Positions 10,658-56,439 of a stretch of DNA of 64,000 bases are shown here, piece by piece. The notes beneath the pieces are model-generated. The model ran no database searches and was not told where the DNA came from. It was given only the letters and a program-made list of their open reading frames with translations. The stretch spans positions 2,197 through 66,196 of the forward strand of contig JAQTPW010000003.1 in NCBI GenBank assembly GCA_028712565.1, written 5' to 3'. This DNA is from Minisyncoccota bacterium (GTDB lineage Bacteria > Patescibacteriota > Minisyncoccia > Minisyncoccales > JAQTPW01). The position numbers were made by a program, and so were the translations under genes. Position 1 is the stretch's first letter, and each line of letters starts with the position of its first letter.

Positions 10658-11422
10658 ATGATAAAGCCAAAAAATGGCGAAAAATCCTTAGAAGACCTTG
10701 CAAAGAAAATACGGCAAAATATTCTAAAAGCCAGCTTTGAGGCTGTTGCCGGACATATTGGGTCTTCTTTATCATGCGTTGAAATACTAGTAAGTTTATA
10801 TTTTAAAATCCTTAAAAGGGGAGATGTTTTTCTTTTTTCCAAAGCCAGCGGCGCCTGCGCTCTTTACGCGGTTTTGGCGGAAAAGGGGATAATTAACCCT
10901 AAAAAAGTTTCCAATTACTTAAAAAGATATCCTTTGGCATCAAAAGAGATCCCCGGAGTCATTTGGTCAGGCGGAAGTTTAGGCCATGGTTTTCCAGTAG
11001 CAGTAGGTTTGGCTTTTGCCGACAAGAAAAGAAAAGTTTTTTGTTTGGTTTCCGATGGCGAGCTAGATGAAGGGACAACTTGGGAAAGCGCTTTATTTGC
11101 CAATCATCAAAATTTAAATAATTTAACCGTCATTATTGATAGGAATATGTTGCAAGCTTGCGGTAGCACTGAAAAAATTGTTAAATTAGAGCCCTTAAAG
11201 GAAAAATGGGAAGCTTTTGGTTGGGAGGCAAAAGAAATAAATGGCCACAGTTTTTCTAAATTAGAACAGGCCTTGAATGCAAAACATAAAAAACCATTGG
11301 TAATTATTGCCAAAACGATAAAGGGAAAAGGAGTCAGCTTTATGGAAAATAATTATGAGTGGCATTACAAAAATTTAACACCCGAACTTTATGAGACAGC
11401 TATTCTCCAAGTATCTAAATAA
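10658..11422 (+). CDS. Transketolase, N-terminal (TPP-binding) subunit
   Basis: GHIGSSLS, GSLGHGFPVAVG, SDGELDEG, AKTIKGKG motifs. Confidence 0.85.
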   Translation: MIKPKNGEKSLEDLAKKIRQNILKASFEAVAGHIGSSLSCVEILVSLYFKILKRGDVFLFSKASGACALYAVLAEKGIINPKKVSNYLKRYPLASKEIPGVIWSGGSLGHGFPVAVGLAFADKKRKVFCLVSDGELDEGTTWESALFANHQNLNNLTVIIDRNMLQACGSTEKIVKLEPLKEKWEAFGWEAKEINGHSFSKLEQALNAKHKKPLVIIAKTIKGKGVSFMENNYEWHYKNLTPELYETAILQVSK

Positions 11423-11861
11423 ATTACTGAAAAAAGACAAAAATGTATTTTTTTTGACGGGAGATTTGGGTTATTCTTTTTTTAAAGAAACCGCAGATAA
11501 ATTTCCTGACCGTTTTATAAATTGCGGCATTATGGAGCAATCAATAGTTGGGATTGCAGCCGGATTGGCATTGTCTGGAAAAAAACCTTACTGCTATTCA
11601 ACTTCTCCGTTTTTAGTTTATAGAGCTTTGGAGCAAATAAGAGATGATGTTTGTTATCAGAATCTCAATGTAAAATTTGTCGGAACCGCACTCGGAGGAT
11701 TTATTGGCTTTACCCATAATTTAGAAGGCAAAGAAAATGAAGAAGATTTGTTGAAGAATTTACCCAACATGAAAAGATATTATCCAAAAACAGAAAAAGA
11801 ATTACAAGTTGATTTAGAAAAAATGTATAAATCAAATAATCCGGCTTTTATAAAACTGTGA
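11391..11861 (+). CDS. Transketolase C-terminal subunit, short form (pyrimidine-binding domain only)
   Basis: FLTGDLG, FPDRFINCGIMEQSIVGIAAGLA. It ends at NNPAFIKL with no C-terminal domain; 156 aa. Confidence 0.7.
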   Translation: MRQLFSKYLNKLLKKDKNVFFLTGDLGYSFFKETADKFPDRFINCGIMEQSIVGIAAGLALSGKKPYCYSTSPFLVYRALEQIRDDVCYQNLNVKFVGTALGGFIGFTHNLEGKENEEDLLKNLPNMKRYYPKTEKELQVDLEKMYKSNNPAFIKL

Positions 11862-11992
11862 CCCCGTTAAAAGTTTTGGGCAGAAAAAATTAGTAAAATT
11901 TTTTCTGCTATGGATAAACGGGGTAAAATAATAAAAATTTGTCTGTCTGAAATTAACAATAATGTTATATAACTGACAGACTTTTAACGGGG
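11862..11992 (+). repeat. Structured intergenic element, copy 1 (terminal inverted arms, internal AT hairpin, TATATAA box, ends in GTG start)
   Basis: CCCCGTTAAAAGT (11862-11874) is complementary to ACTTTTAACGGGG (11980-11992). Hairpin at 11881-11907. Homologous to 36380-36512. Confidence 0.6.
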
Positions 11993-13122
11993 TGAAATAC
12001 AAAGTAGATTTTATAAATTCAAGCTACCGGAGATATTATAAAGCCCATAGGGCAGAAATTTTAAAAGCAATAGATGGGTGCTTTTCTTTGGGCAATTTTG
12101 TTTTAAGAAAAGATGTTTTGGAATTTGAAGGAAAATTAGCAAATTTTGTGGGGACAAAATATGCAGTTGGAGTAAATTCTGGAACAGATGCATTAAAGTT
12201 ATCTTACAAAGCTTTGGGCTGCGGGCCGGGAGATGAAGTTATTACCGTAGGCCATACTTTTATTTCTTCAATTGAAGAAATTGTCCATTTGGGCGGAAAA
12301 CCTATTTTAATTGATGTTTGTGAAGACGGTTTGATGGATGTTTCGCAAATTGAAAAGAATATTACAAAGAGGACTGTCGGAATAGTTCCAGTTCATTTAT
12401 CGGGAAAGGTGTGCGATATGGATGAGATAATGCGAATAGCGAAAAAATATAAGCTCTGGGTTGTAGAAGATGCCTGCCAGGCGCTAGGAGCCTACTGGGG
12501 AGATAAAAAGGCGGGAAGCATAGGAAATACGGGTTGTTTTAGTTTTATATCTCCTAAGACCTTAGGCGGTGCCGGAGACGGGGGTGGAATAGTCACTGAC
12601 AGCCGAAAGTTATATGAAAAGTTGAGATTGATGAGGAATCATTGGAATATTACTCAAGGCGCATTACACGGGGTTCAGCCAAAGGCACCTGAAATTATGG
12701 ATTGGGGATATAATACCCGGCTCGACAACATTCAAGCCGCAATTTTAAACGTAAAGTTTAAATATTATCCGGCAATGCTAAAAAGAAGAAGAGAAATTGG
12801 AATGATGTATAATAAGGGCCTGAAAGATTTGCCTTGCATTTTGCCAACCCAGCAGCCAAAGCAGATTTATCAAGAATATATTATTAAGGTTGACGACATG
12901 TGGGGATTTAAAAAATTTATGGATAAAATGGGAGTTGAACTTTTGATTAGAGATACAATTCCAAATCATAAATTAAAAGGTTTGGGGATGAGCCACTTTA
13001 AGTTGCCGATTACTGAAAAAATAGCAGTCCAGTCTGTAAGGTTGCCGACTTATCCCGAATTAACAAATAAAGAAGTAGAATACGTAATAAATTCTATCAG
13101 GAAATATTATAATGCTGCCTAA
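11992..13122 (+). CDS. DegT/DnrJ/EryC1-type PLP sugar aminotransferase (PglE-like)
   Basis: Full-length family alignment by eye (GTDALKL, VPVHLSG, FSFISPKTLG); GTG start is the only in-frame start. Confidence 0.85.
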   Translation: MKYKVDFINSSYRRYYKAHRAEILKAIDGCFSLGNFVLRKDVLEFEGKLANFVGTKYAVGVNSGTDALKLSYKALGCGPGDEVITVGHTFISSIEEIVHLGGKPILIDVCEDGLMDVSQIEKNITKRTVGIVPVHLSGKVCDMDEIMRIAKKYKLWVVEDACQALGAYWGDKKAGSIGNTGCFSFISPKTLGGAGDGGGIVTDSRKLYEKLRLMRNHWNITQGALHGVQPKAPEIMDWGYNTRLDNIQAAILNVKFKYYPAMLKRRREIGMMYNKGLKDLPCILPTQQPKQIYQEYIIKVDDMWGFKKFMDKMGVELLIRDTIPNHKLKGLGMSHFKLPITEKIAVQSVRLPTYPELTNKEVEYVINSIRKYYNAA

Positions 13123-18214: not shown

Positions 18215-18454
18215 ATTTATAAAAATTTTTTAAAAAATTAAAATTTTCTTAAATTTTTAGTTATGCACACTTGACAAACTTGCTTGACATGAAAAAATGA
18301 ACTAATAGATGTTTTTTCAAAAAAATAGAAGAAACATTTTGGCAAATAGTGGTCGACTATTTGTATGGAATTTTTTGAAAAATTTGAAAATCGACCGATA
18401 AAAAACAAACCTATGGCAAAAAAGAAAAAGAAGAAGAGATAAAATCTCTAGGGA

Positions 18455-18535
18455 CCCCCACACTTATTTTACGCTTAAGTATTAGGATTTCGATGTAAAA
18501 TCATCGGCGTAAAGTAAGTGTGGGGGTTTTGTTTG
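18455..18535 (+). terminator. 20-bp stem hairpin with U-tract (terminator or structured RNA 3' end)
   Basis: CCCCCACACTTATTTTACGC (18455-74) pairs with GCGTAAAGTAAGTGTGGGGG (18507-26), with one G-U pair, then TTTTGTTT. Confidence 0.5.
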
Positions 18536-18562
18536 GATTGAAAATTTCTAAACTAAAACCTA

Positions 18563-18591
18563 TTGCATTTTTATCGAGCAACTAATATAAT
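18563..18591 (+). promoter_or_regulatory. Sigma-70-type promoter of the polyamine operon
   Basis: TTGCAT-17 nt-TATAAT. Confidence 0.5.
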
Positions 18592-18708
18592 AGATAAATA
18601 AACAAATAAACTATTAATCGCTTTTTGTTAACTCTTTGTTTTTAGGTAAGAAAATTTTCTTACTAAAGAGCTCTAAAATATTTTTAGGGTAAGCGATTAT
18701 TGAAATAC

Positions 18709-35063: not shown

Positions 35064-35107
35064 ATATTTAACGAAAAGCGCCACACTTTGTTGGCGCAAA
35101 ATTATCT

Positions 35108-35180
35108 GGTGGCCGGACGCTGAGAACCGCAATTTGCGGAGAGGTGCCGGGGTGAAGGCCCCGTCCCAGCGTTGCCGGCC
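35108..35180 (+). ncRNA. GC-rich structured RNA candidate (class unknown)
   Basis: GGCCGGACGCTG...CAGCGTTGCCGGCC closing helix enclosing the hairpins CCGCA-ATT-TGCGG and CCGGGG-TGAAGG-CCCCG; much more GC-rich than its surroundings. Confidence 0.35.
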
Positions 35181-35224
35181 ATATATACTAGCTATAATAT
35201 AATTAATTTTTTTATCTTTGTCAA

Positions 35225-36388
35225 ATGCCAAATGAAATTAAAAACCTAACTCAGGCTTCTGAAAAAATTTTAGAGGCGATTAAAAAAAAGGAAAAAATTA
35301 TCCTTTATGGGGATGCGGATTTAGATGGCGTATCTTCCGTAATTATCTTAAAAGAAGCTATCAAAAATCTAAACGGCAAAGTAGCCGCTGTTTATTTTCC
35401 GGATCGCGAAACCGAAGGATATGGAATTACAAAGGCCGGATTGGATTCTCTAAAAATATTTTCTCCGGCTTTATTGGTTGCTCTGGATTTGGGCATTGGG
35501 AATTTTGCCGAAGTAAAATTAGCAAAAAAATTGGGCTTTGAAGTCATAATTATTGATCATCATGAAATCTTGGACAAGCTTCCTGACGCCAAAGTTATTG
35601 TAGATCCAAAGCAGGAAGGGGATAAATATCTTTTTAAAAAATTTGCCAATGCGGGCTTGGTTTTTAAGCTTTCCGAGATTTTATTAAGAGATTTAATGAC
35701 CGAAGCTTTGCGCAAAAATTTTTTGGAGTTAACCGCGCTGGCAACAATCGCCGATATGATGCCGAAAGAAGCCGAAAATGAAATTTTTATAGCGGAAGGG
35801 TTAAAATCTTTGGAAAATTCCTGGCGGCCGGGAATTCGCGCCTTTTTTGAAGGGAAATATTTTAACGATTTTTCTCCCGAGCAAAGAATATCAAAAATCA
35901 TCTCCATTTTAAATGTCCGCGATGTGGAAAATGGCTATCCTGCCTGTTTTCGATTATTTAGTTTTTCTTCAATTGATGAATCTAAAAAATTAATTGAAAA
36001 ACTTTTGGAAAAAAGAGAGCAAAGCCGCAAAGAAATGGAAGATATTGTCCAGGAAATAGAAAATCGGCTTATGGGAAAACCCGAAGAAAAAATTATTTTT
36101 GAGGGAGACCGTGGCTGGGAGTTTACCTCTATTTCTCCAATAGCTTCAATACTTAGCCAAGAATATAAAAAACCAGTTTTTATTTTTAAAATATTGGGGA
36201 AAGAAAGCCAGGGAACAGTGAGGGCGCCAAAAGGAGTAGATATTGTGGTTTTGATGAAAAAATGCAAAAACCTTCTTTTAACTTATGGCGGGCATCCTTT
36301 GGCTGCTGGTTTTAGGATAAAAAACGAAAATTTGGAAAAATTTAGAAAATGCCTAATTAAAAACTTAAAAGGTATGAAACCCCGTTAG
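35225..36388 (+). CDS. DHH/DHHA1 phosphoesterase (RecJ-core/NrnA-like)
   Basis: YGDADLDGVSS, IIIDHHE, YGGHPLAAGF motifs; 387 aa. Confidence 0.75.
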   Translation: MPNEIKNLTQASEKILEAIKKKEKIILYGDADLDGVSSVIILKEAIKNLNGKVAAVYFPDRETEGYGITKAGLDSLKIFSPALLVALDLGIGNFAEVKLAKKLGFEVIIIDHHEILDKLPDAKVIVDPKQEGDKYLFKKFANAGLVFKLSEILLRDLMTEALRKNFLELTALATIADMMPKEAENEIFIAEGLKSLENSWRPGIRAFFEGKYFNDFSPEQRISKIISILNVRDVENGYPACFRLFSFSSIDESKKLIEKLLEKREQSRKEMEDIVQEIENRLMGKPEEKIIFEGDRGWEFTSISPIASILSQEYKKPVFIFKILGKESQGTVRAPKGVDIVVLMKKCKNLLLTYGGHPLAAGFRIKNENLEKFRKCLIKNLKGMKPR

Positions 36389-36512
36389 AAATCTTATGTA
36401 GAAAAATTTTCATTAAAATTTTTCTACTTGATTATTCGCGGGAGCATAATTAACTACAAAATATTTGTCAAAAAATGATTTTAAGTTATATAATGACAGA
36501 TTTCTAACGGGG
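36380..36512 (+). repeat. Structured intergenic element, copy 2
   Basis: CCCCGTTAGAAATC (36380-93) is complementary to GATTTCTAACGGGG (36499-512). Hairpin 36398-36427. TTGTCA-18-TATAAT at 36465-36494. Confidence 0.6.
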
Positions 36513-36952
36513 TGAAAAAAATAATTATTTATACAGACGGCGGCTCCCGGGGAAATCCGGGGGAATCAGCAATTGGAGCTGTTTTTTGCAATGAAAGGGG
36601 AGAGATTTTCAAAAAACATTCTGAATGTTTGGGCAGGGCCACCAATAATGAAGCTGAATATCAAGCTGTAATTCTTGCCCTGAAAAAATTTAAATCTCTT
36701 TTCGGAAATAAACTCGCTCAAAATTCCGATATTGAAATAAAATCAGATTCTGAATTATTGGTAAAGCAGTTAAACGGCGAGTATAAAATTATGGAGCCGG
36801 AAATCGGAAATCTTTTTTTGAAAATCTGGAATTTGAAAACTGATTTTAAGAAAGTAAAATTTACTCTTATTTCCCGCGAAAAAAATAAAGAAGCGGACAG
36901 GTTAGTAAACGAGGCGTTGGACTCACAAGTTGCCGCTCAAAAATTATTTTAA
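36512..36952 (+). CDS. rnhA: Ribonuclease HI
   Basis: IYTDGGSRGNPG, TNNEAEYQAVILAL, D-E-D-D catalytic pattern; GTG start. Confidence 0.85.
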   Translation: MKKIIIYTDGGSRGNPGESAIGAVFCNERGEIFKKHSECLGRATNNEAEYQAVILALKKFKSLFGNKLAQNSDIEIKSDSELLVKQLNGEYKIMEPEIGNLFLKIWNLKTDFKKVKFTLISREKNKEADRLVNEALDSQVAAQKLF

Positions 36953-42768: not shown

Positions 42769-42812
42769 CCTTGCCGTAGAATTGTAGCCATGGCTACAAT
42801 TCTACGGCAAGG
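42769..42812. repeat. Perfect 44-bp palindrome (22-bp arms, no spacer)
   Basis: CCTTGCCGTAGAATTGTAGCCA|TGGCTACAATTCTACGGCAAGG. Confidence 0.95.
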
Positions 42813-48840: not shown

Positions 48841-48856
48841 AATTTATCTTCAAAGC

Positions 48857-48927
48857 TGCGGAGTCGTCTAATGGTAGGACTGCAGCCTCTGGAGCTGTGT
48901 ATGTTGGTTCGAATCCAACCTCCGCAG
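48857..48927 (+). tRNA. tRNA-Gln (anticodon CTG)
   Basis: Acceptor TGCGGAG/CTCCGCA, anticodon loop CTCTGGA, T-arm GTTGGTTCGAATCCAAC, discriminator G. Confidence 0.9.
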
Positions 48928-48950
48928 CTTTGAAGATAAGTAGTAATAAA

Positions 48951-49069
48951 TTTGGCGGGGTGAAGTAGGACTGTAGCCTTCCCGTCTGCGGCGGGATAAA
49001 CTGGCTTGCCCCGCTATGGCGGGGAGCCATTAATCTTGGTTCGCCTGCCCCGTAGTGAACCGAGATTTT
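48951..49069 (+). ncRNA. GC-rich structured RNA / attenuator-like leader candidate (class unknown)
   Basis: Two GCGGGG and two CCCCG segments; strong hairpin 49002-49029; terminator-like TCTTGGTTC...GAACCGAGA + TTTT at 49034-49069. Confidence 0.35.
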
Positions 49070-49129
49070 CAAGATTCTACTACTGGGAATCCAAGCCCGG
49101 CAGCCGTTCGTATTTAAACTAAAGAGCTT

Positions 49130-52329: not shown

Positions 52330-55300
52330 ATGAATATGGGTGGTCTTTTTGAAAATTATATCCAATCTATCTCTTCTAAATTTTCTCATGCAGAGACGAG
52401 TGAAATGGGATACCGTACGGACTTTGAGAATTTAATTAAAGAGATTTTCGAGGCGATTAAAGTCTATCGGATAGACCATGACGCAAAAGCTGAAAAGGGC
52501 AATAAGCCAGATTTTGTTGTGCTCAAATATGATGTGCCAATTTTGTATATTGAAACAAAAGATATCGGTGTTTATTTGGATAAAGTTGAAAAATCAGAGC
52601 AAATGGCAAGGTATTATGGTTATACAAATTTAGTTCTTACCAATTATGTCGAATTTCGTTTTTATAGAAATGGAATCCGTTATGAAGAGCCGATAAAAAT
52701 TGCCAATTACGATATAAAAAATAGAATAATTTCTCCAATTCCCGAAAATTACGAGCATATCGCCAAATCATTAGTTGAATTTACTCAAACTTACAAGGAG
52801 CCGATACGTTCAGGCGAGCACCTCGCAAAGATTATGGGTGGGAAAGCGCAAAGAATTAGGGATAATGTGCGTCAATTTTTTGTTTCCGAATCAGATAAAA
52901 GTATTGAACTCTTCCATGTTTATGAAACTGTAAAAAAACTCCTTGTTCATGATCTTACGCCAGACGCTTTTTCTGATATGTATGCGCAAACTCTAGTCTA
53001 TGGCCTTTTTGTCGCTCGTTATTATGACGAATCACCAGATACCTTTACGCGACAAGAGGCCCGCGATCTTGTTCCCGATTCCAATCCTTTTCTTGGACAT
53101 TTTTTTGATCACATCGTTGGACGGAATTTTGATAAGCGACTCGAATATATCGTAAATGAATTGTGCGAAGTTTTTGCCCATTCTAATGTAAAAGAATTAA
53201 TGGGCCAATATTTCAAGACGGATTTATTCGATAAGACCCATGAAGAACCCGATCCGGTTATTCATTTTTATGAAGATTTTTTAAAGGAATACGATCCCGA
53301 ATTAAGGAAAAAAATGGGGGCGTATTATACGCCGTTGCCCGTTGTCAGGTTTATTGTACGAGCTGTAGATAAAATTCTCGAAATGGATTTTGGATTGGTT
53401 AGGGGGCTTGCCGATAATGTTAAAAATACTGCCGGAATTCACCGCGTGCAAATTCTTGACCCAGCCGTCGGTACGGGTACTTTTATTAGTGCGATAATTC
53501 GGGCTATTTATGAACGTATTTTGAAAGCCAAGCAGGAAGGAAGTTGGCCAGCTTACGTGCATCACGATCTTTTACCTCGTATCCATGGATTTGAATTGAT
53601 GATGGCTCCATACACAATAGCTCATTTAAAATTGAGCATGGCGTTTGAAAAAACTGGATTTTGGAAATTTCATCGTCGGCTTGGTATCTATCTTACGAAT
53701 TCCCTCGAAGAGAGTCCTATCCAAAAGGATTTATTTACCGGCTTTGGTTTTGCCGAAAGTATTGCCGAAGAGTCAAAAGAAGCATCAGTTATAAAAAATA
53801 AAACCCCGATTATGGTGGTTGTTGGTAATCCGCCTTATAGCGTAAGCTCCTCAAACAAAGGCGAGTGGATACAAAATCTCATTAAGGATTATAAAAAGGG
53901 TCTCGGTGAACGGAAGATTAATCTTGATGACGATTATATTAAATTCATCCGTTTTGCCGAACACTTTATAGAGAAAAATAAAAGCGGCATTGTCGCGATG
54001 ATTACCAATAACTCATTTATAGACGGTATCACTCATCGTCAAATGAGAAAGCATCTACTTGAAACATTTAATGATATTTATATTCTTGACCTTCACGGAA
54101 ACTCCAAGAAAAAAGAAAAGGCGCCGGACGGGAGGAAAGATGAAAACGTCTTCGATATCCAGCAGGGTGTTTCGATTAATGTTTTTGTACGCGAGGAAGG
54201 TGAAAAAAAGGGTCTCGGTACTGTCCGCCACGCCGAACTTTATGGAAAAAGAGAAAATAAATTTGAAACATTAAGCAAAAACGATATAACAACTATTAAA
54301 TGGAAAAAACTTAATTCACCCGAACCATATTATTTTTTCGTACCAAAGGATTTCGGAGTGGAAGCGGAGTATAGTAAAGGGTTTAAAGTCGATGAATTAT
54401 TTAACATCTTTAGCGTCGGTATTGGTACAAAAGTTGATTCTATATCCGTTGATTTTGATAAAGATAAATTGATAAGAAGAGTAATTGATATTTTGAATAA
54501 CAAGTATAAAAAAGAGTCATTAATTTTAAAGTTTGAATTAGAAAATAATACGACTTGGGAGTACGAGAGAGCCCTTAACGCAACGTTTGAAGAAAATAAA
54601 ATAGTTGAATATGATTATCGTCCCTTCGATAAAAGATACACTTTTTATGATCACGATTTTCTGTCTAGAGGTCGGCGGAATGTAATGGATAATTTTTTCA
54701 ATAAAAATAATTATGGTCTTGAACTGGGTCGAACGTCATTCGTTGCTTTTATATCTAAGGACTTAAGTGACGAGCATTTCGGAGGTCCTAAATCTTATAA
54801 ATTTCCTCTCTATATTTGGGCTGCCGGCAAAAATCGAACACCAAATTTTAAAAAATCAATTATTGAAGAAATAGAAAAAATTATAGGCAAGGCATCCCCT
54901 GAAGATATTTTCGATTACATTTATGCCGTTCTTCACTCGCCAAGCTATCGCGAAAAATACAAGGAATTTTTGAAGATTGATTTTCCTCGAATACCTTATC
55001 CGAAAAATAAAATAAGCTTTAAGAAGCTTGTAGCGTTTGGCACGGAATTACGTTCACTGCACCTTCTTGAATCTCCAAAAATTAACAAATTTATAACAAC
55101 ATATCCTATTACTGGATCAGATACCACCGATAAAATAACTTATAAAGATAATAAAGTATTTATCAATAATGATCAGTATTTTGGCAATGTATCTGAATTA
55201 GCTTGGAATTTCTATGTCGGCGGTTATCAACCAGCACAAAAATGGCTCAAAGACCGCAAGGGCCGTACCCTCACAAATGCCGATATTGAACACTACCAAA

Positions 55301-55377
55301 AAATAATTGTTGCACTCACCGAAACAGATAAAATCATGAAAGAAATTGATAAAATTTATGTTAAAAAAGCAAGATAA
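52330..55377 (+). CDS. Single-polypeptide type IIG-like restriction-modification enzyme (PD-ExK nuclease + gamma N6-adenine methyltransferase + C-terminal specificity domain)
   Basis: N-terminal KPDFVV...LYIETKD; motif I ILDPAVGTGTF; motif IV VVGNPPYS; C-terminal FLKIDFPRIPYP...LRSLHLLES, as in type ISP/IIG specificity domains. No helicase/ATPase motifs. Confidence 0.8.
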   Translation: MNMGGLFENYIQSISSKFSHAETSEMGYRTDFENLIKEIFEAIKVYRIDHDAKAEKGNKPDFVVLKYDVPILYIETKDIGVYLDKVEKSEQMARYYGYTNLVLTNYVEFRFYRNGIRYEEPIKIANYDIKNRIISPIPENYEHIAKSLVEFTQTYKEPIRSGEHLAKIMGGKAQRIRDNVRQFFVSESDKSIELFHVYETVKKLLVHDLTPDAFSDMYAQTLVYGLFVARYYDESPDTFTRQEARDLVPDSNPFLGHFFDHIVGRNFDKRLEYIVNELCEVFAHSNVKELMGQYFKTDLFDKTHEEPDPVIHFYEDFLKEYDPELRKKMGAYYTPLPVVRFIVRAVDKILEMDFGLVRGLADNVKNTAGIHRVQILDPAVGTGTFISAIIRAIYERILKAKQEGSWPAYVHHDLLPRIHGFELMMAPYTIAHLKLSMAFEKTGFWKFHRRLGIYLTNSLEESPIQKDLFTGFGFAESIAEESKEASVIKNKTPIMVVVGNPPYSVSSSNKGEWIQNLIKDYKKGLGERKINLDDDYIKFIRFAEHFIEKNKSGIVAMITNNSFIDGITHRQMRKHLLETFNDIYILDLHGNSKKKEKAPDGRKDENVFDIQQGVSINVFVREEGEKKGLGTVRHAELYGKRENKFETLSKNDITTIKWKKLNSPEPYYFFVPKDFGVEAEYSKGFKVDELFNIFSVGIGTKVDSISVDFDKDKLIRRVIDILNNKYKKESLILKFELENNTTWEYERALNATFEENKIVEYDYRPFDKRYTFYDHDFLSRGRRNVMDNFFNKNNYGLELGRTSFVAFISKDLSDEHFGGPKSYKFPLYIWAAGKNRTPNFKKSIIEEIEKIIGKASPEDIFDYIYAVLHSPSYREKYKEFLKIDFPRIPYPKNKISFKKLVAFGTELRSLHLLESPKINKFITTYPITGSDTTDKITYKDNKVFINNDQYFGNVSELAWNFYVGGYQPAQKWLKDRKGRTLTNADIEHYQKIIVALTETDKIMKEIDKIYVKKAR

Positions 55378-56110
55378 AACATATATTTTTATTGACGAGT
55401 CTGGTAAACCCGAGGTGTATTCAGTAAGAGGCGTCAATTTAGTTGAACAAGGATTCGCTACTAAATTTTTTGTATTAGCTGCGATCCGAAGTGACGATCA
55501 ATTAGCCATACAACAGAAAGTTACCGATTTTAAATCAGAATTATTGCACGATAAAAATTTAACAAAAATATTTTCTTCCGCTTACACTCTTGACGCTTTT
55601 CACGCACAAACCGATTATCCCGAAGTTAAAGAAAAATTCTATCAATTTATAAACAGTTTAGATATCAAAATAGATGTAATTGTTGTAGAAAAGTTAAAGT
55701 GCTATCAAGCGCTTAAACAAAATCCAGGCAAAATGTATGGGATAATGGCTGGACAGCTTTTAAAGAATATTTGTCATAAGTCAAAAAGAACAGAAATAGT
55801 TTTTTCTCGCAAAGACAGTAAGCTTAAATTTCGGCAAGAGCTAGAAATCGAAGTGGAGCGGATTAGATTAGAATGGTTACAACAACATAAAAATCTTGAC
55901 GGGAAATTTACTCTCTCATATCAGCATAATCCTCACCATACTCACGGCGGATTACAGATTGCCGACTATGTTGCTTATGCTATTTTTCAAGCGTACGAAC
56001 ATGGAAAAAATCAGTGGTATGAAGTTATCAAAAATAAAATCGGAGAAATCCACGATATATGCAACAAAAAATACTTCACTAGGAGCAATCCGCTAAAACT
56101 ATCCACTTAA
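55358..56110 (+). CDS. DUF3800-like protein
   Basis: N-terminal YIFIDESG and C-terminal GGLQIADYVAYAIF motifs; start overlaps the R-M gene stop by 20 nt. Confidence 0.65.
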   Translation: MLKKQDKTYIFIDESGKPEVYSVRGVNLVEQGFATKFFVLAAIRSDDQLAIQQKVTDFKSELLHDKNLTKIFSSAYTLDAFHAQTDYPEVKEKFYQFINSLDIKIDVIVVEKLKCYQALKQNPGKMYGIMAGQLLKNICHKSKRTEIVFSRKDSKLKFRQELEIEVERIRLEWLQQHKNLDGKFTLSYQHNPHHTHGGLQIADYVAYAIFQAYEHGKNQWYEVIKNKIGEIHDICNKKYFTRSNPLKLST

Positions 56111-56439
56111 AGGAAGTGCGAACTTCGCACGTTTCATTAAGCGAATTGCTCTCAATGAAGTATTTAAGGGTACAATTGCATTGTACCACAAAAGCGGGCG
56201 TCAAGGCAAAAGTTATCCACAGATAGAAAAAAGCGGGCTTTGAGCCCGGAGTGCGCTTTCGTAGATTAATCCTATAATGTTTTCTGCATTACTATAATTC
56301 CTACTGGAATTGTAGTAAAAACTAAAACAAATTTTGAAACAGTTTCAATAGATGATTTATTGGAGAATAAATATATGTACGCAGATTTACTTTTGAATCC
56401 GAACGCCGTATGATAAGAAAAAAATAATCAAAATTTAGT

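What the first reader, a model, noticed from the sequence alone, without database searches (positions are those of the whole stretch)
11862..11992. Structured ~130-nt intergenic element (copy 1) with covarying terminal stems, placed exactly between a stop codon and a GTG start
Two spacers (11862-11992 and 36380-36512) share one architecture:
- Left arm CCCCGTTA + 5-6 nt.
- AT hairpin AGAAAAAWTT...AATTTTTCT.
- A promoter-like box GTTATATAA(C)TGACAGA.
- Right arm ending TAACGGGGTGAAA, whose GTG is the start codon of the next gene (DegT here, rnhA in copy 2).

The variable parts of the arms differ between copies but stay complementary within each copy: AAAAGT/ACTTTT here and AGAAATC/GATTTCT in copy 2. 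That is compensatory change. Pairing of the arms would bury the GTG start and bring it next to the upstream stop codon. Copy 1 also has an internal AAACGGGG (11916-23) that could pair with the left arm instead.

Possible roles are a MITE-like mobile promoter cassette, a translational-coupling or occlusion structure, or a small RNA. I do not recognise it as a known family.
Basis: seen in the sequence. Interest (0 to 1): 0.65.

Follow-up and report, generated by a model that had tools for sequence, protein, structure and literature searches.

The report
Mobile mini-element sitting on gene starts
The 131-base spacer is a copy of a small jumping DNA element, widespread in ultra-small (CPR/Patescibacteria) bacteria, that lands on the junction between two genes and rebuilds the next gene's start codon; its gene-carrying relatives encode only a tiny GIY-YIG nuclease, which may point to an undescribed way of moving DNA.

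Summary
Both spacers (11862-11992 and 36380-36512) have the described arms, AT hairpin, box and GTG.

They are not a local duplication or a dedicated regulatory RNA. [quoted passage not shown]
- **Ends:** 14-15 bp terminal inverted repeats, consensus CCCCGTTAGAAGTC.
- **Target duplications:** 4 bp in 78 of 95 non-redundant copies, usually TGAA.
- **Empty sites:** syntenic relatives lack the element at both window loci.
- **Nesting:** nested and tandem insertions occur.
- **Spread:** more than 130 copies across diverse CPR genomes and metagenomes.

Insertion is typically at an ATGA stop/start overlap. The left TGA keeps the upstream stop. The element's last G plus the duplicated TG makes the GTG start, and 52 of 95 copies open a long ORF there. 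Orientation is strongly biased, 45 TGAA against 3 TTCA, so the box-bearing end faces the gene. The box looks like a sigma-70 promoter in copy 2, but not in copy 1.

The arm covariation is real but looks DNA-level. Pairing is strictly Watson-Crick, with no preference for G·U.

Unexpectedly, 281-285 bp elements with the same ends and duplications carry only an 86-aa GIY-YIG nuclease gene. More distant nuclease clades carry different ends. I infer, without a test, that this nuclease mobilises the family.

The parts
11859..11861 (+). Left copy of the target duplication (TGA). It is also the stop codon of the upstream Transket_pyr gene (11391-11861).
   Evidence: Relatives have an ATGA stop/start overlap here.
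11862..11992 (+). Copy 1: a 131-bp non-autonomous inverted-repeat element (MITE), with its box-bearing end facing the DegT-family gene.
   Evidence: nhmmer E = 1.7e-23. Absent from syntenic loci L134-L137.
11862..11874 (+). Left terminal inverted repeat, CCCCGTTAAAAGT.
11880..11908 (.). Subterminal AT-rich perfect palindrome: GCAGAAAAAATT, loop AGTAA, AATTTTTTCTGC.
   Evidence: Family-wide it is strictly Watson-Crick, with 64 arm variants.
11916..11923 (+). Internal partial copy of the right end (AAACGGGG), followed by a TAAAAT/TATAAT-like box.
11966..11972 (+). Conserved TATATAA box (-10-like). In copy 1 it is followed by C, so it is not a canonical sigma-70 match.
11980..11992 (+). Right terminal inverted repeat, ACTTTTAACGGGG. 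Its last G is the first base of the GTG start.
11992..11995 (+). Rebuilt GTG start of the DegT-family gene (11992-11994). It overlaps the right copy of the target duplication, TGA (11993-11995).
36375..36379 (+). Left copy of the target duplication (TGAAA). The A at 36374 plus TG is the displaced original ATG of rnhA.
   Evidence: Empty sites in L011 and L012.
36380..36512 (+). Copy 2: a 133-bp MITE of the same family (GAAATC arm subtype), facing rnhA.
   Evidence: E = 4.2e-20. Absent from syntenic loci L011 and L012.
36380..36394 (+). Left inverted repeat, CCCCGTTAGAAATCT. It supplies the TAG stop (36386-36388) of the DHH/DHHA1 gene.
36398..36427 (.). Subterminal AT-rich palindrome: GTAGAAAAATTTT, loop CATT, AAAATTTTTCTAC.
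36465..36494 (+). Outward-facing sigma-70-like promoter, TTGTCA-18-TATAAT (11 of 12).
36498..36512 (+). Right inverted repeat, AGATTTCTAACGGGG. Its last G starts the GTG of rnhA.
36513..36517 (+). Right copy of the target duplication (TGAAA).

Best explanation
**What it is.** Copy 1 (11862-11992) and copy 2 (36380-36512) are non-autonomous mobile DNA elements (MITEs). They belong to a family spread through CPR/Patescibacteria.

**Shown.**
- The element has 14-15 bp inverted-repeat ends, consensus CCCCGTTAGAAGTC.
- It duplicates 4 bp of target, T-N-N-A/G, most often TGAA. In this window the repeats read as 3 bp (TGA) at copy 1 and 5 bp (TGAAA) at copy 2.
- In this genome it landed on the xTGA stop/start overlap of Transket_pyr/DegT, and on the ATGAA start of rnhA.
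- The left duplicate keeps the upstream stop. In copy 2 the left arm itself supplies a TAG.
- The element's terminal G plus the right duplicate's TG recreates a GTG start at the native N-terminus.

**Inferred.**
- The host gene's ribosome-binding site is now about 130 bp away. Expression therefore probably depends on the element's right half: a TATATAA/-10-like box about 17-18 nt before the GTG, which is a full TTGTCA-18-TATAAT in copy 2. This would give a short-leader mRNA. It would explain why copies overwhelmingly point this end at the gene.
- The matched arms and the strictly Watson-Crick internal palindrome reflect a DNA-level requirement, such as stem or cruciform formation, or templated homogenisation during transposition. 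They are not an RNA switch.

**Inferred, about 50% likely.** The family is mobilised in trans by the 86-aa GIY-YIG (UPF0213/SLX1-like) nuclease. This is the only gene in the 281-285 bp elements that carry the same ends and the same 4-bp duplications. When such an element sits at ATGAA, its ORF borrows the host ATG (N-terminus MNPVRS...). The ORF ends at the TAA inside the right repeat, with only CGGG between that stop and the rebuilt GTG.
For: **Family and spread.**
- A strict two-arm pattern found 10 loci in GTDB species genomes. Eight carry CPR names (Nealsonbacteria, Kazan, Parcubacteria, Saccharibacteria-labelled, Patescibacteria UBA4787). My estimate of the chance expectation was about 0.5.
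- 128 of 138 right ends have a left arm within 250 nt. The size mode is 129-134 nt.

**Target duplications.**
- All 16 distinct copies examined first have 3-5 nt direct repeats.
- In 95 non-redundant copies the repeat is 4 bp in 78: TGAA 45, TATG 8, TTGA 6, TGAG 5.

**Empty sites.**
- PGK-DHH-rnhA-OTCase relatives have stop, then 2-7 nt, then ATGAA, with no element.
- TK_N-TK_pyr-DegT relatives have an ATGA overlap, with no element.

**Other marks of mobility.** Nested and tandem insertions occur.

**Start-codon rebuilding.**
- 52 of 95 copies open a long ORF at the terminal G plus TG. Eight have ATG within a TATG duplication, and three have TTG within TTGA.
- Reconstructed targets are canonical SD-ATGAA gene starts.
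- Window N-termini align with those of relatives.

**Orientation.** 45 TGAA against 3 TTCA.

**Promoter.**

**DNA-level pairing.**

**Nuclease link.**
- L085 1046-1330 has the same ends, a TCAA duplication and an 86-aa ORF matching Pfam GIY-YIG at E = 2e-14.
- Six more independent ORF-bearing elements have the same ends, with duplications TTGA three times, TGAA twice and TTG once.
- The family has 641 close homologues. Of the 120 listed, 34 have an N-terminus that translates the left repeat (xPVRS/N), and 96 end in F, the TTC-TAA of the right repeat.
- Catalytic Y, Y-x-G, R, H and E are invariant.
- The nearest solved relatives are the UPF0213 protein BH0048 and SLX1.
- Homologues at 37-50% identity carry different ends, CCCCGTACCACAG and CCCCGTAATAC..., both with TATG duplications.
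Against: **Promoter and expression.**
- No transcript or biochemical data exist.
- The box is a canonical -10 (at least 5 of 6, with A2 and T6) in only 28 of 93 copies. Copy 1 fails the scan.
- How GTG is translated without a ribosome-binding site is unexplained.

**Copy 1 detail.** Its duplication is 3 bp (TGA), not 4.

**Start-codon bias.** The window has 12 xTGAA gene starts against 73 intergenic TGAA/TTCA sites. So the bias needs either selection or extra target specificity, and I could not separate the two.

**Nuclease hypothesis.**
- To my knowledge, GIY-YIG enzymes cut DNA but are not known to join strands.
- MITEs share only about 15 bp of ends with the ORF-bearing elements.
- The only ORF-bearing copy from the same sample lies in a different Pacebacteria MAG (accession MDD4990375.1 against MDD51455xx). 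None is in the window.
- A DDE transposase elsewhere in these genomes cannot be excluded.
Confidence: 0.8

Rival explanations
1. It is the same MITE, but a conventional and so far unseen transposase mobilises it, for example one of the IS1380/piggyBac type. The small GIY-YIG gene would then be cargo, or a selfish passenger, that has been caught between the same ends.
For: **Known enzymology.** A 4-bp duplication beginning with T and ending with A, and ends starting CCC..TAGAA, recall piggyBac.
- The piggyBac left end appears as CCCTAGAAAGATAGTCTG... in an oligonucleotide listed in PMC5861402, which also describes a 13-bp terminal repeat plus a subterminal palindromic repeat, TTAA targets and hairpin intermediates.
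- ISEcp1 has the left repeat CCTAGATTCTACGT and 5-bp direct repeats (PMC6061673).

**Weak link between MITEs and the nuclease elements.** They share only the roughly 15-bp ends.

**Chemistry.** To my knowledge, strand transfer is established for DDE enzymes and not for GIY-YIG enzymes.
Against: - No transposase-like ORF lies between such ends, or recurs, in 844 kb around more than 130 copies. None of the window ORFs scanned has a transposase domain.
- TTAA never appears among the 95 duplications.
- The nuclease ORF is interlocked with the ends. Its stop is inside the right repeat, and its start is borrowed from the target ATG through the left repeat.
- Distinct nuclease clades carry distinct ends, as expected of a protein that recognises its own ends.
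Confidence: 0.3
2. The element is a cis-acting RNA structure or small RNA. The long terminal stem would sequester the GTG start in read-through transcripts, or couple it to the upstream stop. The element would be conserved for that regulatory role.
For: - The predicted RNA fold is very stable, and the GTG is paired in the stem.
- The arms covary.
- One position in copy 1 is U·G on the + strand.
Against: - Target duplications, empty sites and nested copies show that the element is inserted DNA.
- No Rfam family matches.
- Mismatches in the arms are 8 G·U-type against 7 A·C-type. In the hairpin they are 2 against 2, among 1131 Watson-Crick pairs. That is no wobble tolerance and no strand bias, which I regard as atypical of selected RNA helices.
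- The same ends occur on 30-nt bare palindromes and on a protein-coding element.

An RNA-level side effect on read-through transcripts is still possible.
Confidence: 0.05
3. The spacers are a site-specific recombination site (integron attC-like), or simply a local duplication of one intergenic spacer.
For: The imperfect palindrome of about 130 bp, sitting between cassette-like genes, superficially recalls an attC site.
Against: - The ends read CCCCGTTA...TAACGGGG, not RYYYAAC...GTTRRRY (the attC consensus is from my own knowledge).
- The elements are flanked by target duplications.
- No integrase is present among the window ORFs scanned.
- More than 130 copies lie in unrelated contexts and genomes.
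- The two window copies are only 82% alike and belong to different arm subtypes.
Confidence: 0.01

Closest known systems
Correia elements (CREE/NEMIS) of Neisseria, and bacterial MITEs in general
   Same: They are elements of about 100-150 bp with terminal inverted repeats and short target duplications. They are present in many copies, sit next to gene starts, carry promoter-like boxes, and fold into long hairpins when transcribed. No transposase has been identified for Correia elements. (All of this is from my own knowledge.)
   Different: - The ends are unrelated (CCCCGTTAGAAGTC).
- The duplication is 4 bp, T-N-N-A/G, against TA.
- The host range is CPR-wide rather than one genus.
- Insertion is typically inside the start codon or stop/start overlap, with the start codon rebuilt.
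- A candidate partner element exists, and it encodes a GIY-YIG nuclease rather than a transposase.
piggyBac / IS1380-family elements (including ISEcp1)
   Same: - The duplication is 4-5 bp.
- The ends begin with a C run followed by TAGA(A).
- A palindromic repeat sits just inside the end, and the piggyBac mechanism has a hairpin intermediate.
- ISEcp1 is known to drive neighbouring genes from an outward promoter (my own knowledge).
   Different: - No DDE transposase was found.
- TTAA is never the target.
- The resemblance of the ends covers only about 10 bases and could be chance.
- Membership was not demonstrated.
Free-standing GIY-YIG homing endonuclease genes, and UPF0213/SLX1-type GIY-YIG nucleases
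   Same: The partner ORF has the GIY-YIG fold signature with invariant catalytic residues. Its closest solved relatives are UPF0213 BH0048 and SLX1. Homing-endonuclease GIY-YIG genes are selfish and mobile (PMC1564403).
   Different: - Homing copies a gene into a cognate allele by repair. The enzyme recognises the uninterrupted target, not its own mobile DNA; inverted-repeat ends and target duplications are, to my knowledge, not features of homing.
- Here the gene is bounded by inverted repeats and 4-bp duplications at unrelated sites, and it has non-coding derivatives.
- The protein is the catalytic domain alone (85-86 aa), with no DNA-binding domain.
REP/REPIN-RAYT and IS200/IS605-derived palindromic elements
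   Same: They are small palindromic non-coding elements whose mobility depends on DNA hairpin structure and on a single small nuclease-type protein supplied in trans (my own knowledge).
   Different: Those elements make no target duplication, have no true terminal inverted repeats, and use a HUH/Y1 enzyme.
Rickettsia palindromic elements
   Same: They are palindromic elements in reduced genomes that are tolerated inside genes (my own knowledge). Here one reverse-oriented copy is read through in frame as a 44-aa N-terminal extension (L017).
   Different: RPEs sit within coding regions and have no known protein partner. This family sits at gene boundaries.

Membership tests
MITE (miniature inverted-repeat transposable element) | Small size (under about 500 bp) with no transposase ORF | tested here: met
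   The copies are 131 and 133 bp. The family mode is 129-134 bp. The mini-ORF entering from the flank is not conserved.
MITE (miniature inverted-repeat transposable element) | Terminal inverted repeats | tested here: met
   Matched ends of 13-15 bp in both copies. The family consensus is CCCCGTTAGAAGTC.
MITE (miniature inverted-repeat transposable element) | Target-site duplication flanking each copy | tested here: met
   TGA and TGAAA in the window. The duplication is 4 bp in 78 of 95 non-redundant copies. A random-pairing control is dominated by the shared TGAA.
MITE (miniature inverted-repeat transposable element) | Many copies at unrelated sites, with empty sites in relatives | tested here: met
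   Empty sites. Nested copies.
MITE (miniature inverted-repeat transposable element) | A cognate autonomous element with the same ends that encodes a transposase | tested here: inconclusive
   Elements with the same ends and duplications exist, but they encode only a GIY-YIG nuclease. No classical transposase was found.
Any Rfam RNA family | Covariance-model match at the curated threshold | tested here: not met
   Only three tRNAs in the window reach the gathering score. Nothing credible appears at E up to 10 on 11800-12050.
Intrinsic terminator | G+C-rich stem followed by a T run | tested here: not met
   No terminator-like sites in either region. The hairpin is AT-rich and its T run lies inside the stem.
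Sigma-70-type promoter (outward-facing, within the element) | -35 and -10 hexamers at 16-18 nt spacing | tested here: inconclusive
   Copy 2 matches 11 of 12. Copy 1 has none. 28 of 93 family members have a canonical -10, and 9 have both hexamers. There are no transcript data.
piggyBac / IS1380 superfamily | DDE transposase between the ends; TTAA target (piggyBac) or 4-5 bp duplications | tested here: not met
   The 4-bp duplication is met. TTAA is never seen. No DDE ORF was found.
Integron attC site | RYYYAAC ... GTTRRRY core sites and an associated integrase | tested here: not met
   The ends read CCCCGTTA...TAACGGGG. No integrase domain is present among the window ORFs scanned. The core-site consensus is from my own knowledge.
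GIY-YIG nuclease superfamily (for the ORF of the partner elements, not for the window element) | Pfam PF01541 match and conserved catalytic residues | tested here: met
   PF01541 at E = 2e-14, 54 bits against a cut-off of 22.6. Y5, Y16, G18, R26, H30 and E62 are invariant in 28 sequences. Nearest solved relatives are 1ZG2 (UPF0213) and SLX1.
GIY-YIG nuclease acting as the family's transposase | Cleavage at element ends and integration into T-N-N-A targets | not testable with these tools
   Only comparative evidence is available: the ends are interlocked with the ORF, and nuclease clades vary together with their ends.

The most novel reading that the evidence does not exclude
The window's elements may be the non-coding derivatives of a previously undescribed class of prokaryotic transposon. 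Its autonomous form would be only about 285 bp long and would encode nothing but an 86-aa GIY-YIG, structure-specific-type nuclease.

That nuclease would recognise the paired CCCCG...CGGGG ends. The element would insert with a 4-bp stagger into gene start codons and ATGA overlaps.

Once inserted, it would become an extra cistron. It borrows the host's ribosome-binding site and ATG. It hands translation back through the TAA-CGGG-GTG junction.
Probability: 0.45. Interest if true: 0.9.

Novelty: new variant of a known kind. Interest (0 to 1): 0.72.

Why it matters
CPR/Patescibacteria genomes are tiny and densely packed. A mobile element that thrives there by inserting without disrupting either neighbouring gene shows how selfish DNA can survive where almost every base is coding. 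It does this by keeping the upstream stop, rebuilding the downstream start, and bringing expression signals.

There are practical consequences for annotation.
- Gene callers record these genes as GTG-initiated.
- They also extend small nuclease ORFs with the MNPVRS prefix, which is encoded by the left inverted repeat.
- Recognising the element explains and corrects both.

If the 86-aa GIY-YIG protein is the mobilising enzyme, it would, to my knowledge, be the smallest autonomous DNA transposon known. It would also add a new catalytic class to transposition, and a compact, structure-guided DNA-insertion activity worth testing.

Tried and rejected
1. **The element truncated the upstream transketolase gene.** Rejected. 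The 156-aa Transket_pyr-only protein is the normal length in hundreds of relatives, and the junction is an intact ATGA overlap in relatives.
2. **DHH and rnhA were once a fusion gene.** Removing copy 2 and one duplicate joins the two ORFs in frame. But all 120 listed homologues are about 380-435 aa and unfused, and relatives have a stop 2-7 nt before rnhA. The native stop was probably lost after the element supplied a TAG.
3. **A known RNA family.** None found.
4. **The AT hairpin is an intrinsic terminator.** Not by the scan.
5. **A conserved peptide, or translational coupling through the MITE.** Rejected. The ORF from the old ATG stops at variable positions. Only 1 of 45 stops at the repeat's TAA, and element lengths show no multiple-of-three bias.
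6. **Search for an autonomous copy with a classical transposase.**
   - Arm pairs 260-6000 bp apart with matching duplications turned out to be neighbouring MITEs flanking ordinary genes.
   - All-against-all clustering of 575 ORFs from the loci gave only housekeeping families.
   - No transposase domains were found in the window.
7. **Viral contigs.** There were no two-arm matches. Twenty single-arm 15-mer matches included only one short element; I judge the rest chance or unrelated.
8. **Plasmid collection.** Only weak, partial low-complexity matches (E 0.3-4 in the rows listed).
10. **Literature.** Nothing on MITEs in CPR, on this sequence, or on GIY-YIG genes bounded by inverted repeats.
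11. **Is the ORF-bearing copy P0310 in the window's own genome?** No. It is in another Pacebacteria MAG from the same run.
Full report
**1. The observation**

Both spacers are as described.
- The ends are CCCCGTTA...TAACGGGG.
- An AT-rich hairpin lies just inside the left end.
- The box GTTATATAA(C)TGACAGA is present.
- An ORF starts at the GTG that overlaps the last G of the right arm. It is DegT-family at 11992 and RNase H at 36512.

The two copies are 82% alike. Their arms differ at two paired positions, and both changes are compensatory.

The folds are far more stable than shuffled controls. As RNA, z = -6.9 and -8.35. As DNA, z = -9.0.

Two details need correcting.
- The upstream ORF of copy 2 ends at a TAG inside the left arm (36386-36388).
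- Only copy 2 has a consensus sigma-70 promoter, TTGTCA-18-TATAAT. Copy 1 has none.

A family profile finds only these two copies in the window.

**2. It is a widespread family, not a local duplication**

A strict pattern (both arms plus TGACAGA) found 10 loci in one-genome-per-species GTDB contigs. Eight carry CPR names: Nealsonbacteria, Kazan, Parcubacteria, Saccharibacteria-labelled, and Patescibacteria including UBA4787. The other two are a 'bacterium isolate WY2.bin141' and an unplaced Patescibacteria isolate. My estimate of the chance expectation was about 0.5.

Of 138 right ends, 128 have a left arm within 250 nt, and sizes peak at 129-134 nt.

The window comes from a 'Candidatus Pacebacteria' MAG, on a 69,370-nt contig.

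**3. It is inserted DNA**

*Target duplications.* Every one of the first 16 distinct copies is flanked by a 3-5 nt direct repeat. Among 95 non-redundant full copies the repeat is 4 bp in 78. The commonest are TGAA (45), TATG (8), TTGA (6) and TGAG (5).

*Empty sites.*
- Relatives with the same PGK-DHH-rnhA-OTCase order, at 67-71% DHH identity, have the DHH stop followed 2-7 nt later by ATGAA(A/G)AA. They have no element.
- Relatives with the same TK_N-TK_pyr-DegT order have an ATGA stop/start overlap and no element.

*Other marks of mobility.*
- Elements are found inside one another (L079).
- Elements occur in tandem, separated by TGAA (L031).
- Shorter forms (59-118 nt) and bare palindromes of about 30 nt carry the same ends and 4-bp repeats, mostly TAAA/TTTA and TGAA.

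**4. Where it lands, and why the GTG is there**

Reconstructed pre-insertion sites are ordinary gene starts, often a Shine-Dalgarno sequence followed by ATGAA. With a TGAA duplication three things follow.
- The left copy preserves the upstream gene's TGA.
- The original A of the ATG stays on the left.
- The element's terminal G plus the right-hand TG gives GTG.

A long ORF begins exactly there in 52 of 95 copies. Another 8 have ATG inside a TATG duplication, and 3 have TTG inside TTGA.

In the window the N-termini line up with those of relatives. VKKIIIYTDGG aligns with MKKIIIYTDGG, and VKYKVDFIN aligns with M(S/T)(F/Y)KVPFVN.

Copy 1 sits on an xTGA overlap. Its visible repeat is only TGA, one base short of the usual four.

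The window has 12 gene starts reading xTGAA but 73 intergenic TGAA/TTCA sites. Avoidance of coding sequence alone therefore does not explain the start-codon bias.

**5. What the non-coding copies probably do**

Orientation is strongly biased. TGAA appears 45 times and its reverse complement TTCA 3 times, although both orientations would rebuild GTG and both pass the search pattern. One of the rare reversed copies survives because it is read through in frame as an N-terminal extension.

So the right half matters to the downstream gene. It carries a TATATAA(T/A/G) box ending about 17-18 nt before the GTG.
- In copy 2 it forms a good promoter.
- In the family, 28 of 93 copies have a canonical -10 hexamer in the last 40 nt (16 of these hexamer matches lie at the conserved position), and 9 of 93 have both hexamers. 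None of 93 does in the mirror position on the other strand.

I infer an outward promoter giving a short-leader mRNA. This is not shown.

How GTG is translated with its ribosome-binding site displaced is unexplained. The mini-ORF entering from the old ATG ends at variable places, and only 1 of 45 ends at the repeat's TAA. Coupling through the MITE is therefore unlikely.

**6. The covariation**

It is real and family-wide. Arm subtypes GAAGTC, GAAATT, GAAATC and GAAGTT occur matched on both arms. ORF-bearing elements add GAAACT and GAAACC.

The pairing behaves like DNA, not RNA.
- In the arms, G·U-type and A·C-type mismatches are equally rare, 8 against 7.
- In the internal palindrome, 93 elements with 64 different arm sequences have 1131 Watson-Crick pairs and only 6 others: 2 G·T, 2 A·C and 2 other mismatches.

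No Rfam family matches, and the hairpin is not terminator-like.

**7. The unexpected partner**

One 285-bp element (L085 1046-1330) has the same ends and a TCAA duplication. It is filled by a single 86-aa ORF, a GIY-YIG nuclease (Pfam E = 2e-14). Its stop codon is the TAA of the right repeat.

The protein has 641 close homologues of 85-93 aa at 73-85% identity. Sources name Jorgensen-, Wildermuth-, Nealson-, Wolfe- and Pacebacteria among their hosts.

Six further independent loci show the same ends and duplications.
- TTGA three times. In at least two of these it reads on into TTGACA, a -35-like hexamer.
- TGAA twice.
- TTG once.

At ATGAA sites the nuclease ORF has no start of its own.
- It begins at the host ATG and reads through the left repeat. 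In L181 this is ATG AAC CCC GTT AGA AGT, giving MNPVRS.
- It ends TTC TAA CGGGG TGAA. This leaves only CGGG between its stop and the rebuilt GTG of the host gene.
- L181 lies between a His_biosynth-domain (HisF-like) gene and a GATase-domain (HisH-like) gene. L183 lies between two sugar-pathway genes.

Of the 120 listed homologues, 34 carry this repeat-encoded N-terminus and 96 end in F.

The catalytic residues are invariant. The nearest solved relatives are the UPF0213 protein BH0048 and the structure-specific nuclease SLX1.

More distant homologues (37-50% identity) in the fetched loci are bounded by different ends.
- CCCCGTACCACAG, with a TATG duplication.
- CCCCGTAATAC..., with a TATG duplication.
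- ACCCCGCCCTCTA.
- An unrelated 17-bp repeat.

This co-variation of protein clade with ends is what one expects if the protein recognises its own ends.

No classical transposase was found near more than 130 copies or in the window.

The ORF-bearing copy from the same sequencing run belongs to a different Pacebacteria MAG. None lies in the window.

**8. Comparison with what is known**

By its defining features the window element is a MITE: small size, inverted-repeat ends, target duplications, many copies, and no transposase gene.

It works like Correia-type promoter-bearing MITEs. It differs in its ends, its duplication, its host range, and its habit of sitting in the start codon and rebuilding it.

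The ends and the 4-bp T...A duplication recall piggyBac and IS1380. However, TTAA is never used and no DDE gene was found, so I do not file it there.

The partner ORF is a member of the GIY-YIG superfamily. A GIY-YIG gene bounded by inverted repeats and target duplications, with non-coding derivatives, matched nothing in the searched literature.

**9. Verdict**

- The MITE reading is well supported (about 0.8-0.9).
- The promoter role is plausible (about 0.5).
- The RNA-switch reading is unlikely.
- The nuclease as the mobilising enzyme is an attractive inference (about 0.45-0.5). It needs biochemistry.

Noticed in passing
window 35064-35224: A GC-rich, self-complementary stretch of about 75 nt (GGTGGCCGGACGC...GCCGGCCA) lies between the PGK and DHH genes. 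In the syntenic relative L011 the two genes abut. It has no Rfam match.
   Followed up: partly
window 48940-49115: A GC-rich region of about 170 nt lies directly after tRNA-Gln and starts GGCGGGGTGAAG. It looks like a structured RNA, but neither ARAGORN nor Rfam (E up to 0.1) recognises it.
   Followed up: partly
window 48844-48939: tRNA-Gln (48857-48928) is embedded in a perfect 20-nt inverted repeat, TTATCTTCAAAGCTGCGGAG / CTCCGCAGCTTTGAAGATAA. The repeat extends the acceptor stem by 13 bp.
   Followed up: no
window 42769-42812: A perfect 44-nt palindrome (CCTTGCCGTAGAATTGTAGCCA and its complement) lies in an intergenic region after tRNA-Gly.
   Followed up: no
window 18215-18699: An unusually long spacer of about 480 nt precedes the AdoMet decarboxylase gene. 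It contains a 21-nt inverted repeat (18454-18474 / 18507-18527, 95% complementary).
   Followed up: no
window 11391-11861 and 10658-11422: A split 'transketolase' pair sits inside a sugar-modification cluster. The second subunit is a 156-aa Transket_pyr-only protein, conserved at that length in hundreds of CPR relatives. It lacks the Transketolase_C domain.
   Followed up: partly
window 52330-56165: A Type ISP restriction-modification gene is followed by a DUF3800 gene (55346-56110). A 29-nt inverted repeat (56069-56097 / 56137-56165) lies at its 3' end.
   Followed up: no
L031 697-1036; L079 about 40-413; L086 2344-2610: Three elements sit in tandem, separated only by TGAA. Elsewhere there are double and triple nested insertions. 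This suggests repeated use of the duplicated target, and of sites inside the elements themselves.
   Followed up: partly
L017 2573-3565 (also L048): A reverse-oriented copy at an ATGAA start is read through in frame. This gives a methyltransferase a 44-aa N-terminal extension, MNPVRSLSV...TSNGV.
   Followed up: partly
L158 3262-3300; L161 about 1759-1790; L160 about 2262-2300: Three ORF-bearing elements have TTGA duplications. In L158 and L161 the sequence reads on into TTGACA. In L158 it is TTGACA-17-TATAAT. These elements may have landed in the -35 box of a promoter and preserved it.
   Followed up: no
L024 2791-3057; L094 3301-3551: More distant small GIY-YIG genes are bounded by quite different inverted repeats: the 17-bp TAAAATTTAAAAATGTT, and ACCCCGCCCTCTA. 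This hints at a wider set of nuclease mini-elements.
   Followed up: partly
L126 720-1709: A 329-aa ORF lies next to one element. It resembled a LAGLIDADG-type homing endonuclease to my eye, but I did not scan it.
   Followed up: no
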